Positions 12,001 to 18,000 of a stretch of 64,000 bases of DNA are shown piece by piece. The DNA comes from Negaprion brevirostris (taxonomy: Eukaryota). Each line of letters starts with the position of its first letter. The first letter of the stretch is position 1. Location of the stretch: the NCBI GenBank assembly GCA_030324005.1, contig JARDVH010000154.1, positions 34,405,973-34,469,972 on the forward strand. The letters are read 5' to 3'. A program made the position numbers.

Positions 12001-15000
12001 GAGGTTTTAAGGTACATCTTTACAGAGGAAATAGGTGGAAAGTTTTTCAGAGAATTTTAGGGCCTTGAGTAAAGGGATGCCACTGATGATGGAGATTAAA
12101 ATTTGGGGGCATGCTAGAGACCTGAATGAAGCGGGCTTCTCATTCTAAGGCATGCTTCATTGCTGGAGGGTTAAGAAACTACAGAACCATAGAAAAGTTA
12201 CAGCACAGAAAGAGGCCCATCTTGTCCATGCCAGTCCAAAGACATGCAGGTGCTATTTCTAATCCTACCTTCCTACATCTGGCCAATAGCCCTATAGCTT
12301 ACAGTAGTTAAGGCACAGATCTAGATATGTTTTAAGAGTTTAAGGTCTCTGTCTCTGCCACCAACTTGGGCAATGAATTCTAGACACCTTTGCGTAATAA
12401 GTTCTTCCTCATGTCCCCTCTACACTTACTGCCGCTTAACTTGTAAATATGTCCCCTGGTTTTAGATTTCTCCACCTAGGAAAACAATTTTATCCTGTCC
12501 ACTCTATCTCTTCCTCTCATAAGTTCGTACACCTCTGTCAAGTTACCCCTTAGCTTTCTTTGTTCCAAGGAAAATAACCCCACCTATCCAATCTCTCCTC
12601 ATAGCTACACTTCTCTAGCTCTGGCAGCATTCTTGGAAGACCTGCTTTAGTCATGTGGAACGCTACTGATGCCATATCGTTTCCTCAATTTCTACAAATC
12701 TATGGTTAACACAAAACTGTGTTAGCTGTGGTGTCAGCATGTCACAAATCACGAAAGATCATGAGCTTTCCCAGTCCTCCTATTCTGCCTCTCCCATTCT
12801 CAGCTGTATAAAAGTAACAAATATTCTTAAAAACCCTACAGGGGAAAATAAAGCTTGGCAGCAAAGTAAGAAATTCAATCTCAAAGTTTTGGCATTCAAG
12901 ATCCGCAAGTTTTGTTCTCACCAGTTATGTCAGGAGAACTATTTGATTGAATTGCATTAAGCTCAAACTCATTGTCACATCTGTTGCCCTATATGTGGCC
13001 CTGTGTGCTGATATAGATCAGATCAAACTACTAACTCATCCCTGAGGCTTCATGTCCCCTTGTAGTTTAGTTATTCCAAGCAGACATTTTTATTGTCAGC
13101 CTGGGGGCTGCAGCATCTCTGTTTACACAGATTTAATTTAGCTTTTTAATTGTTTTCATTCCTCCTAACTTGTAAATTGAGCCAGTGAATGAAACAATCT
13201 ATTGCGTTGACCGCTAATGCAAGGAATGCTAGAAATCACATCTGCTCATAGAACAGGTGCTGGAAACTTATTACAGATCTAACTGAGGAGAAGCAGCCAG
13301 GAGAGCTGCGGCACTGTGACGACTTACACTCAATGTAATTACTGCTGTGCAAATTCAGTACAGGTGAGGTGGCAGGGAGGGCAGGTAACCCGAAGTGATC
13401 TGCCCTAAAACTCTTACAATAGATAATATGAATCTATTCTCTTGTGAAAGATATTAACCTGATGTTTTCACCACCTAGTGGTTTAAGGAGCGTAAAGGTC
13501 ACTATGTTGAGGAGATTTCAGGGTAACTTACTGAAATAACAGCCATTAACATTAAAAGGTCCATGTCTGTGAATAAGTTTATGCTCCAGACTAAGCGGTC
13601 CAATGCAATGTGAATTTTAGGCCATCTTTAAATTACAGCTGTACTTCAATAAGAGAGATTCTGTATTATTCTGGCACTGTGAATTTTGCACTGTTTATGC
13701 TATAAAGAAAATTCCATCGAACCTGAGCAGCACCAGCTTGTATTCCGAGACTCAACCATCTTCAGCTGCTTTATCCTTCAATCTTTATCCTTTCCTCCGT
13801 CATAAGGTTAGAAGTAGCGAGGTTTGCTGATAACTGCACAATATTCACCATCATAGAATTGTAGAATCCCTACAGTGCAGAAAGAGGCCATTCGGCCCAT
13901 CGAGTCTGTACTGACCACAATCCCACCCAGGCCCTATTCCCGTAACCACACATATTTACCTTGCCAATACCTCTGACACCAAGGGGCAATTTAGCATGGC
14001 CAATTAACCTAACTTACACATCTTTGGAGTGTGGGAGGAAACCGGAGCACCCGGAGGAAACCCACACAGACACGGGGAGAGTGTGCAAACTCCACAAGGT
14101 CCCTGGCGCTGTGAGGCAGCAGTGCTAACCACCGTGCCACCCCAGTGCAGAAATGGCCTTAATCTATGGAAGAAAGCTTTATTCAGGCCCTTTAAATCTA
14201 CTGGGTTACTACAATCATAATTCTGCTGATGTAAATGACTGGAGATATTCTCCATTCATGACCTCAATCTATGATCACACAAGCTGTACTTTTGCTAAGA
14301 GATTTCAATTTGATAACTCACATCATCGACCATCAGTGTTGCCATAGCTCTTCCAATCTCGCTGTAAGATTTACCTTTCCCTTGGGGACCCAAAAGAATA
14401 AAAATGAACCTGTTTGGGAAAGATACCAGAATGTTAAAACTGTGAGTGAAGGCAAATTCCTCTTCCTTCAGTCCCTGCTAAGCGAATTAGTTTTAAAACG
14501 GAAGGAAAGTTGAAGTACATTCTCAAGTTAGATTGTGTACCCACTGTCCTGTATCTAGTTTGACATCACTTAATGCACCTCGGCAGAGAGCTAATTGCTT
14601 TTGCAGTACTGTTGACCCCGTGGAGAGGTCTCAGACAGATTGAGTGTACTTAATAAACCAGCACTGCGACATTCAATCAAACCTTGAGTCAGCTATCCAA
14701 CAGATGATTGTGCTCTCAATTGAACAAGCAATTATCCGTGTCAGCAGAATTGTGGTCCAACCCACAATCATGCTTTGAATTAATTCATTTTTGGAAAATT
14801 AACTTTCAAGCCATCAGAACTTCAGTAGATAGAATTGTGCAACATTACCCTTCAAAAAAGAAAGCTAGCATTGTTTCTGCATGGTCCATGAATGGCAGCA
14901 CACTCATCTCAATTATATATGTTGTCTCAGTTGTCTATGTTCTATAATGTGTTTCTATTATTACTGGGCTCGTCAACATGCTCTGTAAATGGACCAGTAC

Positions 15001-18000
15001 CTTGTTGGAACTGCCACTTCCGTCAGTCCACCTAACATTGTTGACTGCAGGAGACGGACAAAGGCGACAAACGGCTTATCCAGGAAGTCGACTTCTCCAA
15101 CAAGGATGTTTGAGGCTTCCGAGTCACGAGGTATTTTCTTCTTGAATTTGTTCTTGAGCTGCAAAGGGTTTGAGACAAGTTAGAATTTGGAAAAGAGGAT
15201 TTCTATTGAGCAGAAGGCGATAAAGGATGGCCACAAAGTATGAACTCTAGCTTTTTTTAATGCATCTAGAATCACTGACAGGTTAATTTACTCCTACAGT
15301 TTCCCTGCTCCAGTGCTGAAGGGAGGCTGGTTATCAGATGGATGTTGCCGGGGTCTATTAGCTCTGCAGCGTGTGACAGGCAGTCAGTGGAAGGTACAGG
15401 CTGACATTAAAGGCTCAGATTGGCTCCCATATCCCAATGCCCAAAGATCATGTACTCAAAGGGTAGGATTTTCCAGCCCGCTCGCCACCCGAGTCAACAG
15501 GTCTTTGCATAGCCCATATCCCGCCCGCTACGACTCCCGGAACTGGGAGCATTCCACCCAAAACGTTTTTAACAAATAAAAGAAAGCAGCACTTCCAGCT
15601 TTTTAAAAATTCTCTTGTGGGATGTGGGCCTCACTGGCTTGGCTATGGTTCCCTGCCCATCCCTAACTGCCCTTGAACGAAGTTGGGTCATTTCAGAGGG
15701 AGGCTGAGAGTCAATCACATTGCTGTGGCTCTGGAATTGCACGGAGGCCAGACCGGATAAGGACAGCAGATTTCCTTCCTCAAAGGATATTAGTGAACCG
15801 GATGGGTTTTTAACAATAATCGATGATAGTTTCATGGTCACAAATACCCAGAATTTATAATCCATGTTTATTTTTGAATTTATGGGATGTGGGCATCACT
15901 AGCTCATTGGGCCAAATGGCCTCCTTCTGCACTGAAGGGGTTCTATGATCTATTTTTATTGCCCATTCCTGAGGGCATTTACAAGTCAATCACATTGCTG
16001 TGGCTCTGAAGTCACATGTAGGCCAGACCGGATAAGAATGGCAGATTTCCTTCCTCAAAGGGTATTAGTGAACCAGATGGGTTTTTCCGACAATGGTTTC
16101 ATGGTCTTATGTAGACTTTTAATTCCAGATATTTTTTATTGAATTCAAATTTCACCATTTGCCGTGATGGGATTCGAATCCGGGTCCCCAGAACGTTAGC
16201 TAAGCTTCTGGATTAATAGTCGAGTGATAATACCACGAGGCCATTGCCTCCCCTGTGTTTCTGAATTTAAATTCCACAAGATGCCGTAGTGGGATTTGAA
16301 CCCGTACCCCTAGAGAACCAGCCTGAGCCTCTGGCCAACTAGTTAATTCCACTAGACCACCATCTCCCCAAAGCTGTTACATGTACAAATGTCTGTTCAA
16401 ATTAACAATTACCAAAACTCAATGTTTCAATGTCAAGATGGTTCATTTCATAATGCACTCTGAACTAATTTAACCCTGTATCACCCGCAGTCCCAGGCTT
16501 GCTAACACAACTGAACCAGCTGCTGACAAATAACTGTTCTTTGTGGTTTTGAGGGTACTTGGCTGCAGATACCATTCTAACCTGGACATCATTAAACATC
16601 CAATGGGATCATAGAATCCCTACAGTGCACAAGGAGACCACTTGGCCCATTGAGTCTGCGCCTGCTCACCAACAGAGCAACCCACCCAGGCCCTATCCCC
16701 ACAGCCCCACATATTTACCCCACAAATCCCCTAACCTACACATTCTGGAATACAAATCTGGGATTCAGCCTGGCTAATCCACCTAACCTGCACATCTTTG
16801 GACATGAAGGGGCAACTTACAAAGAACATTACAGCGCAGCAACAGGCCCTTTGGCCCTCCAACCCTGCACCCACCATGCTGTGTGACTGAACTAAAACCC
16901 CCTACCCTTCCGGGGACCGAAAGAACAAAGAAACATTTAGCATGATCGATCCATCTAGCCTGCACGTCTTTGGACTGTGGGAGGAAAGAGGAGCACCCAG
17001 AGGAAACCCATGCAGACTCCGCACAGACAGTGGCCCAAGCCGGGAATTGAACCCGGGTCCCTGGCGCTGTGAGGCAGCAATGCTAACCACTGTGCCACCC
17101 ACACATCTTTTGAACTATGGAAGGAAACTGGAGCGCCAGGAGGAATCTCATGCAGACATGGGTAGAAAGTGCAGACTCCGCACAGACAGTGACCCAAGGC
17201 GGGAATTAAACCCGGGTCCCTGGCACTGTGAGGCAGCAATGCTAACCACTGTGCCCTCTTGCTGCCCAAAGGTAGCGAAGTTTGAAGACTCAGGCTTTGG
17301 ATGAGAACCAAGTCTCCTCTTGAAAAGAAGCATTGCAGTAAAACACAGCAACCCAGCTTCAAACTCACACTGTGAAGCAAACAAGGAAACATTCCCACAG
17401 GCTCCCCACAGATGTTGGCTGCTGCTGGATCCTATATTGTTCAATAAGCCAGCCAACATGTAGAGGCCTATAAGCAGGATGTAAAATCAGGAATGTGAGC
17501 AGAGAACTAAGCTCCATACTCGTGATTCCAATCAATGGCAATCTGCTACTTCATAATCTGATTAACAATTGAAAAATGTGGCATATTTTATTAAAACTAA
17601 ACCGAGGTGAACTGAGCTTGAGTGTTTTTGTTTTTTTTTACCTGAGCTGCTAACTTTAAAAATTACAGGCGTAAAAGTTTATGTTGAGTGTGAATGGCAG
17701 ATCATTTCCAGGTGACTTAATATAAGCCTTGAGTTGAACTGCGTTGGGTCATTGAGTTTATCTGCTGTTTCCGCCACACCGTACCATTGTGTTCACTTTT
17801 ACATTTTGTACCTGTGTCTTCTTCTAAATAAATCTTTAGCTCTCCCAAAGATTGGATGGAGGTATCATCTGTTTAAGAGCGCATCAGGCGCCCCTAGGTT
17901 TTCCCAAACCATGCTGAGTTATCTGGTCTCAGCTGATTCCCAGCGGGGAGAAGAGTGAGGGATGACTTTACTCCTGTCTAGCGATGTGTGGATGTTAGAC

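What the first reader, a model, noticed from the sequence alone, without database searches (positions are those of the whole stretch)
14322..15158. Two intact orphan SLC4A5-like exons antisense within the apparent GOSR2 intron 1
Seen: 158-bp and 88-bp minus-strand exons with canonical AG/GT ends, matching phase, no stops and a 591-bp intron. By eye I found neither the next exon (LFSDVAYKA...PPGEWDP) in the 14 kb downstream nor upstream exons (e.g. WIKFEEKVE, RKHRHQTKK) in the 49 kb upstream. Known: mammalian SLC4A5 is not adjacent to GOSR2, and these are mid-gene exons. Inference: this is (a) a true interleaved antisense SLC4 gene whose 5' part would overlap the GOSR2 exons, (b) a recent DNA-level duplicated fragment, possibly SINE-mediated because HE1 copies bracket it at 13851-14143 and 16608-17257, or (c) a chimeric assembly joined through SINEs. 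The intron rules out a processed pseudogene.
Basis: partly seen in the sequence, partly recalled or inferred. Interest (0 to 1): 0.8.

Follow-up and report, generated by a model that had tools for sequence, protein, structure and literature searches.

The report
Stray SLC4A5 exons beside shark GOSR2
Two perfectly preserved exons of the bicarbonate transporter gene SLC4A5 sit on a small gap-bounded piece of a fragmented shark assembly next to the GOSR2 gene, and this is most likely a misplaced assembly piece rather than new biology.

Summary
Minus-strand exons 15158-15001 (158 bp) and 14409-14322 (88 bp) have AG/GT ends, a matching phase and a 591-bp intron. Each hits Pfam Band_3_cyto. They are 52/52 and 29/29 identical to SLC4A5 in 12 proteins from 7 shark species. 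No other SLC4A5 exon is in the window.

Both exons lie on a gap-free 8,771-bp contig (9321-18091) bounded by 100-N runs. No GOSR2 exon is on that contig. GOSR2 exons 2-5 start at 24971, and exon 1 is not in the window, so "intron 1" is unproven. In 11 of 11 elasmobranch species, SLC4A5 and GOSR2 sit on sequences of different length. The "bracketing" SINE matches 15 other loci in the window at about 70-82% identity.

Best reading (about 0.55): a piece of the true SLC4A5 locus was wrongly joined at an N-run. Main rival (about 0.33): a recent DNA-level duplicated fragment with no function. A real interleaved gene is very unlikely. No shark genome could be searched, so this stays unresolved. Interest is low.

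The parts
15001..15158 (-). SLC4A5 exon, 158 bp: 52 codons plus the first 2 nt of an Arg codon. It encodes part of the Band 3 cytoplasmic domain.
   Evidence: AG/GT ends and an open frame. Pfam PF07565 E = 8e-18. 52/52 identical to 12 SLC4A5 proteins from 7 shark species.
14410..15000 (-). 591-bp GT...AG intron between the two exons
14322..14409 (-). SLC4A5 exon, 88 bp: the last nt of the Arg codon plus 29 codons
   Evidence: AG/GTGAGT ends. Pfam PF07565 E = 1.4e-10. 29/29 identical in 23 of 23 elasmobranch SLC4A5 rows.
9321..18091 (.). Gap-free 8,771-bp contig that carries both SLC4A5 exons and no GOSR2 exon
   Evidence: N-run map and contig list. GOSR2 tblastn.
9221..9320 (.). 100-N run, the left join of the contig. 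Its flanks do not overlap.
18092..18191 (.). 100-N run, the right join of the contig. It is the only gap between the SLC4A5 exons and GOSR2 exon 2. Its flanks do not overlap, and both are unique within the window.
9321..9395 (-). Terminus of a high-copy repeat, forming the very first bases of the contig. Copies at 94-98.6% identity end three other contigs right at 100-N runs (4456-4523, 35499-35561, 48545-48614).
   Evidence: (I5)
13862..14142 (-). tRNA-derived SINE copy 180 bp downstream of exon B, in the same orientation as the exons
   Evidence: It matches 15 other loci in the window.
16608..17265 (-). Composite SINE with two tRNA-like heads. Segments 17011-17096 and 17170-17255 are 95% alike.
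24971..25035 (+). GOSR2 exon 2 (context)
   Evidence: tblastn with shark GOSR2. Splice sites and phase.
28622..28730 (+). GOSR2 exon 3 (context)
30626..30758 (+). GOSR2 exon 4 (context)
39369..39509 (+). GOSR2 exon 5 (context)

Best explanation
The two exons are the shark's ordinary SLC4A5 exons, or an exact image of them. They appear next to GOSR2 because of a wrong scaffold join in a very fragmented draft assembly. Either the 8.8-kb contig 9321-18091 was interleaved between two contigs of the GOSR2 scaffold, or everything left of the N-run at 18092-18191 belongs to the SLC4A5 locus and a single false join fused it to GOSR2 exons 2-5. On this reading there is no antisense gene and no new biology. 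The neighbouring SLC4A5 exons are missing simply because shark introns are longer than the stretch assembled here. Shown: the identity of the exons, the contig and gap layout, the absence of GOSR2 exon 1, and the separation of the two genes in other elasmobranchs. Inferred: that the join itself is false.
For: (1) Both exons and the split Arg codon are identical to SLC4A5 in 12 of 12 listed proteins from 7 galeomorph shark species. The 18 further cluster members gave the same tblastn figures as those proteins (54/55 and 32/36, the mismatches falling on boundary residues read from intron). Exon B is 29/29 in 23 of 23 elasmobranch rows. There is therefore no sign of decay. (2) The exons lie on a contig bounded on both sides by 100-N runs, and no GOSR2 exon shares that contig. 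(3) The window is highly fragmented, with 23 N-runs and 24 contigs in 64 kb. (4) The 100-N class is a true assembly-gap class, because the flanks overlap at 2 of 9 such runs (31 nt with 2 mismatches; 45 nt exact). Neither join of the SLC4A5 contig has such support. (5) The contig's first 75 nt are a high-copy repeat that also ends three other contigs at 100-N runs at 94-98.6% identity. This is the kind of sequence through which false links arise. (6) GOSR2 exon 1 is not found in the roughly 25 kb upstream of exon 2, so nothing left of 18092 is tied to the GOSR2 locus. (7) In 11 of 11 elasmobranch species where each protein was seen on one contig, SLC4A5 and GOSR2 are on sequences of different length.
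Against: No read, depth or second-assembly evidence could be consulted, so the falseness of the join is an inference. Two of nine 100-N joins are demonstrably correct, so this class of join is not generally unreliable. The contig carries the same SINE family, at similar divergence, as its neighbours, which fits either reading. None of the 41 shark or ray SLC4A5 models inspected lacks these exons. However, none of those species matches the window's GOSR2 exons perfectly, so the window's own species was probably not among them. The last GOSR2 exon is also missing over 24 kb downstream of exon 5, so long introns in this locus are plausible, and a missing exon 1 is only weak evidence.
Confidence: 0.55

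Rival explanations
1. This is a real, recent DNA-level (segmental) duplication. It copied a piece of the SLC4A5 locus, including two exons and their intron, to a site upstream of GOSR2 exon 2, in antisense orientation. The copy is a non-functional gene fragment: 82 residues of the cytoplasmic domain with no membrane domain.
For: The intron and canonical splice sites are kept, as a DNA-level copy would keep them. No other SLC4A5 exon is in 64 kb. Full-length SLC4A5 lies elsewhere in other elasmobranchs. Two of nine joins of the 100-N class are verifiably right.
Against: Zero amino-acid changes in 82 codons against seven shark species means the copy must be very young. The linkage to GOSR2 rests wholly on N-runs. 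No short orphan SLC4A5 fragment from any shark appears among the 50 short proteins found, whose best identity is 88%. That is weak evidence, because pseudogenes yield no protein entries. The proposed SINE-mediated origin lacks support, because the copies are about 70-82% alike and occur at 15 other loci.
Confidence: 0.33
2. The contig is itself chimeric. Only about 14143-16607 comes from SLC4A5 and was spliced into GOSR2-locus sequence by the assembler through the flanking SINE copies.
For: SINE copies lie on both sides, at 13862-14142 and 16608-17265.
Against: Within the window, those copies match other copies at only about 67-83% over 95 nt or more, which is far below what collapses in an assembly graph. 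The only near-identical pair is a local tandem, 17011-17096 and 17170-17255, at 95%. SINEs of this family occur about every 4 kb, so bracketing is expected by chance.
Confidence: 0.05
3. This is a true SLC4-type gene interleaved antisense with GOSR2, the reader's option (a).
For: Splice sites are intact and the phase fits.
Against: Only 2 exons, covering residues 284-365 of about 1130, are present in 64 kb. tblastn at E<=10 and the 10-mer scan find nothing else. In 11 of 11 elasmobranch species the two genes are on different sequences. Only one SLC4A5 locus per species appears in the hit lists.
Confidence: 0.03

Closest known systems
SLC4A5 (NBCe2, 'electrogenic sodium bicarbonate cotransporter 4') of sharks and rays
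   Same: Both exons are identical at the protein level to the annotated SLC4A5 of Cetorhinus, Stegostoma, Scyliorhinus (2 species), Chiloscyllium, Mustelus and Carcharodon. The named full-length proteins among the top 120 hits are called this transporter, S4A5, generic 'Anion exchange protein', or are unnamed or hypothetical; the rest are short unnamed fragments. The closest solved structure by sequence is NBCe1 (6caa), at E = 3.4e-21.
   Different: Only 82 of about 1130 residues are present. The membrane domain (PF00955) and all other exons are absent from the window.
Scaffold interleaving or mis-join in draft short-read assemblies
   Same: A small contig is bounded by unknown-size gaps, ends in a high-copy repeat, and carries exons of a gene from another chromosome, with no host-gene exon on the same contig.
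   Different: It is not demonstrated here, because no reads or second assembly were available.
Non-processed (duplicated) pseudogene or gene fragment in a segmental duplication
   Same: It is a partial gene with intron and splice sites retained, lying away from the parent locus.
   Different: Such copies usually show some decay, and none is seen here in 82 codons. The parent copy could not be compared at the DNA level.
Processed pseudogene (retrocopy)
   Same: It would also be a gene fragment away from its parent locus.
   Different: The 591-bp intron with GT...AG ends is retained, so this is not a member.

Membership tests
SLC4A5 / NBCe2 gene (exon-level orthology) | The sequence matches the Band 3 cytoplasmic domain (PF07565) above the curated cut-off | tested here: met
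   65.5 and 41.8 bits against a cut-off of 34.3
SLC4A5 / NBCe2 gene (exon-level orthology) | The best relatives are SLC4A5 orthologues rather than SLC4A4, SLC4A7, SLC4A8, SLC4A10 or the AE anion exchangers | tested here: met
   The top hits are 100% identical to shark proteins named electrogenic sodium bicarbonate cotransporter 4. Among PDB paralogues the score falls from 76 bits (NBCe1) to 29 bits (AE1).
SLC4A5 / NBCe2 gene (complete, functional locus) | The transmembrane HCO3- transporter domain (PF00955) and the remaining coding exons are present at the locus | tested here: not met
   tblastn with 7 full-length shark proteins and a 10-mer scan find nothing outside the two exons
Processed pseudogene | Introns are absent | tested here: not met
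   A 591-bp GT...AG intron is retained
Segmental-duplication gene fragment | A second, distinguishable copy with high DNA identity exists at the parent locus of the same genome | not testable with these tools
   No shark genome collection was available. The genome-contig collection holds bacteria and archaea only.
Assembly mis-join | The feature is linked to its surroundings only through gaps, with no unique sequence or host-gene exon shared across the join | tested here: met
   The contig 9321-18091 lies between two 100-N runs, has no GOSR2 exon, and shows no flank overlap
Assembly mis-join | Reads or an independent assembly contradict the join | not testable with these tools
   No reads or other assemblies were at hand
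Location in GOSR2 intron 1 | GOSR2 exon 1 lies upstream and exon 2 downstream of the feature on one continuous sequence | tested here: not met
   Exon 2 is at 24971-25035. Exon 1 was not found, even when up to 5 of 10 residues were allowed to differ. There is also an N-run in between.

The most novel reading that the evidence does not exclude
The placement is real. A very young interchromosomal segmental duplication dropped two intact, splice-competent SLC4A5 exons in antisense orientation upstream of GOSR2 exon 2 in this shark lineage. There they could be exonised into an antisense or chimeric transcript.
Probability: 0.3. Interest if true: 0.25.

Novelty: not a real feature. Interest (0 to 1): 0.1.

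Why it matters
It matters mostly as quality control. If the join is false, gene predictors will report a spurious 'SLC4A5-like' fragment inside or beside GOSR2. They may also report a hole in the true SLC4A5 model for this assembly. If the join is real, this is one more young, non-functional gene fragment produced by segmental duplication. That is of minor interest unless it is transcribed against GOSR2.

Tried and rejected
The following steps led nowhere or were rejected.

- **Spliced model:** I made no joined two-exon model. Every search was run exon by exon, so no search or fold of the spliced 82-residue segment was done.
- **Rfam and ARAGORN** on the whole window gave 0 and 0 hits, so the SINE heads are too decayed to score. 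The family name HE1 was not tested.
- **Flank overlap or shared repeats across the two joins:** none was found. The ends 8460-9220, 17266-18091 and 18192-19200 are unique within the window apart from one 41-nt match.
- **GOSR2 exon 1 and the last exon:** not found. There is no CpG-rich stretch in 1-26000.
- **Short annotated orphan fragments:** 0 of 50 short proteins reached 90% identity or more. All but one are unnamed, and they were not used.
- **A shark SLC4A5 model lacking exactly these exons:** 0 of 18 further cluster members and 0 of the 23 elasmobranch rows.
- **Species of the window:** none of the 21 plus 15 GOSR2 proteins compared matches all four exons perfectly. The best was 147/159, including boundary residues. 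I left it at 'a shark, probably galeomorph'.
- **Literature:** one paper holds both gene names, an epilepsy gene list seen in the search listing only, and it is irrelevant. I did not read the HE1/SINE/shark listing further.
- **ORF scan of the window:** only transposon-like fragments turned up besides the exons named.
- **Not usable here:** the genome-contig collection (bacteria and archaea only) and the phage, plasmid and E. coli collections. No shark DNA outside the window could therefore be compared.
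Full report
**Observation.** On the minus strand, 15158..15001 (158 bp) and 14409..14322 (88 bp) are flanked by AG and GT. A 591-bp intron separates them. Together they read as one frame: 52 codons, an Arg codon split AG|G, then 29 codons, with no stop. I searched each exon on its own. I did not build, search or fold a joined (spliced) model, so nothing here rests on a spliced sequence.

- Pfam places exon A at positions 178-228 and exon B at positions 230-258 of Band_3_cyto (PF07565). 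The E-values are 8e-18 and 1.4e-10, both above the curated cut-off.
- The closest solved structure by sequence is NBCe1 (6caa), at E = 3.4e-21. Other SLC4 paralogues score progressively lower.

**Identity.** A search with exon A among longer proteins returned 1840 relatives. The named full-length proteins among the 120 listed are called 'electrogenic sodium bicarbonate cotransporter 4' (SLC4A5/NBCe2), S4A5, generic 'Anion exchange protein', or are unnamed or hypothetical. The rest of the 120 are short unnamed fragments.

- Twelve proteins from seven shark species (Cetorhinus, Stegostoma, Scyliorhinus torazame, S. canicula, Chiloscyllium punctatum, Mustelus, Carcharodon) are 52/52 identical over exon A, have the same Arg at the junction, and are 29/29 identical over exon B.
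- Pristiophorus and Heptranchias are 50/52 and 49/52 over exon A. Rays are 49-50/52.
- Exon B is 29/29 in all 23 elasmobranch rows.
- Eighteen further cluster members, including Chiloscyllium plagiosum and Rhincodon, gave the same tblastn figures as those proteins: 54/55 and 32/36, with the mismatches on boundary residues read from intron.
- The segment corresponds to residues 284-365 of the 1129-aa Carcharodon protein.

These are therefore genuine SLC4A5 exons with no sign of decay. That those seven species are galeomorph sharks is my own knowledge, not a tool result.

**Nothing else of SLC4A5 is here.** tblastn with seven full-length shark SLC4A5 proteins at E<=10 found only these two exons. 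In a scan of every 10-mer of P0011 against all six frames, all 75 hits at >=8/10 lie inside the two exons.

**The setting.** The window is a very fragmented assembly. It has 23 N-runs totalling 2,537 N and 24 contigs of 325-8,870 bp. Nine of the runs are exactly 100 N. The others vary from 9 to 596 N.

- Both SLC4A5 exons lie on one gap-free contig, 9321-18091 (8,771 bp). It is bounded by the 100-N runs 9221-9320 and 18092-18191.
- GOSR2 is on the + strand. Exon 2 is at 24971-25035, exon 3 at 28622-28730, exon 4 at 30626-30758 and exon 5 at 39369-39509. All have AG/GT ends and fitting phases.
- No GOSR2 exon lies on the SLC4A5 contig.
- Exon 1 (10 codons) was not found on either strand, even when up to 5 of 10 residues were allowed to differ. 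There is no CpG-rich stretch in 1-26000.
- The last coding exon is also absent from the 24 kb after exon 5.

'Within GOSR2 intron 1' is therefore not shown. The demonstrable statement is 'upstream of GOSR2 exon 2, across an N-run'.

**What the gaps say.** The 100-N runs are real assembly gaps, not masking. At 2 of 9 the flanks overlap: 31 nt with 2 mismatches at 34691-34790, and 45 nt exactly at 60349-60448. This also means that joins of this class can be correct.

- Neither join of the SLC4A5 contig has an overlap.
- The ends 8460-9220, 17266-18091 and 18192-19200 have no informative match elsewhere in the window.
- The first 75 nt of the contig (9321-9395) are the terminus of a high-copy repeat. 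Copies at 94-98.6% identity sit at the ends of three other contigs directly against 100-N runs (4456-4523, 35499-35561, 48545-48614). Another copy lies at 57700-57774, and more diverged ones lie elsewhere. Contig ends of this kind are where false links arise.

**SINEs.** The copies at 13862-14142 and 16608-17265 are real tRNA-derived SINEs in the same orientation as the exons. The first matches 15 other loci in the window, mostly at 68-83% identity. Bracketing by SINEs is therefore expected by chance. The copies are also too diverged to explain either an assembler chimera or homologous recombination. I did not test the family name HE1. Rfam and ARAGORN found nothing.

**Other species.** The protein tables give the length of the contig on which each protein was seen. 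In 11 of 11 elasmobranch species where SLC4A5 and GOSR2 were each seen on a single contig, those lengths differ. The species are Cetorhinus, Mustelus, S. canicula, S. torazame, Carcharodon, Rhincodon, Heptranchias, Hemitrygon, Narcine, Mobula birostris and Rhinoraja. Stegostoma and Chiloscyllium punctatum also differ, but their GOSR2 entries were seen on 2-3 contigs. I infer that the two genes lie on different chromosomes in elasmobranchs. This excludes a shared locus for the whole genes. It does not exclude a small copied fragment.

**Explanation.** The most likely reading is an assembly artefact (about 0.55). Sequence from the true SLC4A5 locus was joined to the GOSR2 scaffold at an N-run.

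- One false join at 18092-18191 would be enough, because nothing to its left is tied to GOSR2.
- Alternatively, the 8.8-kb contig alone was interleaved between two contigs of the scaffold.
- Perfect protein identity to seven species, the gap-bounded contig, the repeat at its end, the absent GOSR2 exon 1 and the fragmented assembly all fit this reading.

The main rival is a very young DNA-level duplicated fragment that truly sits here and has no function (about 0.33). It fits the retained intron and the fact that some 100-N joins are right, but it requires zero changes in 82 codons. A contig chimeric through the SINEs (about 0.05) and a true interleaved gene (about 0.03) are unlikely. The encoded 82 residues are an internal piece of the cytoplasmic domain without the membrane domain. 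On any reading, this locus by itself cannot make a transporter.

**What stayed unchecked.** No shark genome, reads or transcripts could be searched. The decisive comparison with the main SLC4A5 locus of the same genome was therefore not possible. The window's species was not pinned down. None of the GOSR2 proteins compared matches all four exons perfectly. No short orphan SLC4A5 protein from any shark turned up among 50 short hits. The literature search found nothing linking the two genes apart from an unrelated gene list, seen as a listing only.

**Verdict.** The sequence observation is confirmed. The arrangement is probably not a real feature, and interest is low.

Noticed in passing
window 34691-34790 and 60349-60448: Two 100-N runs whose flanks overlap (31 nt with 2 mismatches; 45 nt exact). 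These gaps are spurious and the contigs actually abut or overlap.
   Followed up: yes
window 9321-9395, 4456-4523, 35499-35561, 48545-48614, 57700-57774 (also 319-391, 32126-32201, 46905-46961, 55919-55993): A repeat terminus of about 75 nt. Its youngest copies (94-98.6% identity) coincide with contig ends at four of the nine 100-N runs, so the assembler seems to break inside this element. The element was not identified.
   Followed up: partly
window 39510-64000 and 1-24970: The GOSR2 last coding exon (about residues 160-212) and exon 1 are both missing from the window. Either the introns exceed 24 kb, or the exons are in gaps, or there are further assembly problems.
   Followed up: partly
window 17011-17096 and 17170-17255: A local tandem duplication at 95% identity inside a SINE, giving a composite element with two tRNA-like heads.
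   Followed up: no
window 54500-54580 and 56720-56800; ORFs 54577-54948(-) and 56543-56905(-): Two further 100-N runs have left flanks from one repeat family. The adjacent minus-strand ORFs share a conserved peptide, also seen at 577-918(-), 19167-19433(+) and 45267-45623(-). It looks like the tail of a retroelement ORF. No family search was run.
   Followed up: no
window about 45240-45290: A (CTCCTT)n microsatellite lies about 40 nt before the 219-N run at 45294-45512.
   Followed up: no
window 39510-39575: Reading through the exon 5 donor of GOSR2 keeps the frame open for about 20 codons. Some annotated shark isoforms (P0122, P0148) also diverge just after this exon. Possible alternative 3' ends were not examined.
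   Followed up: no
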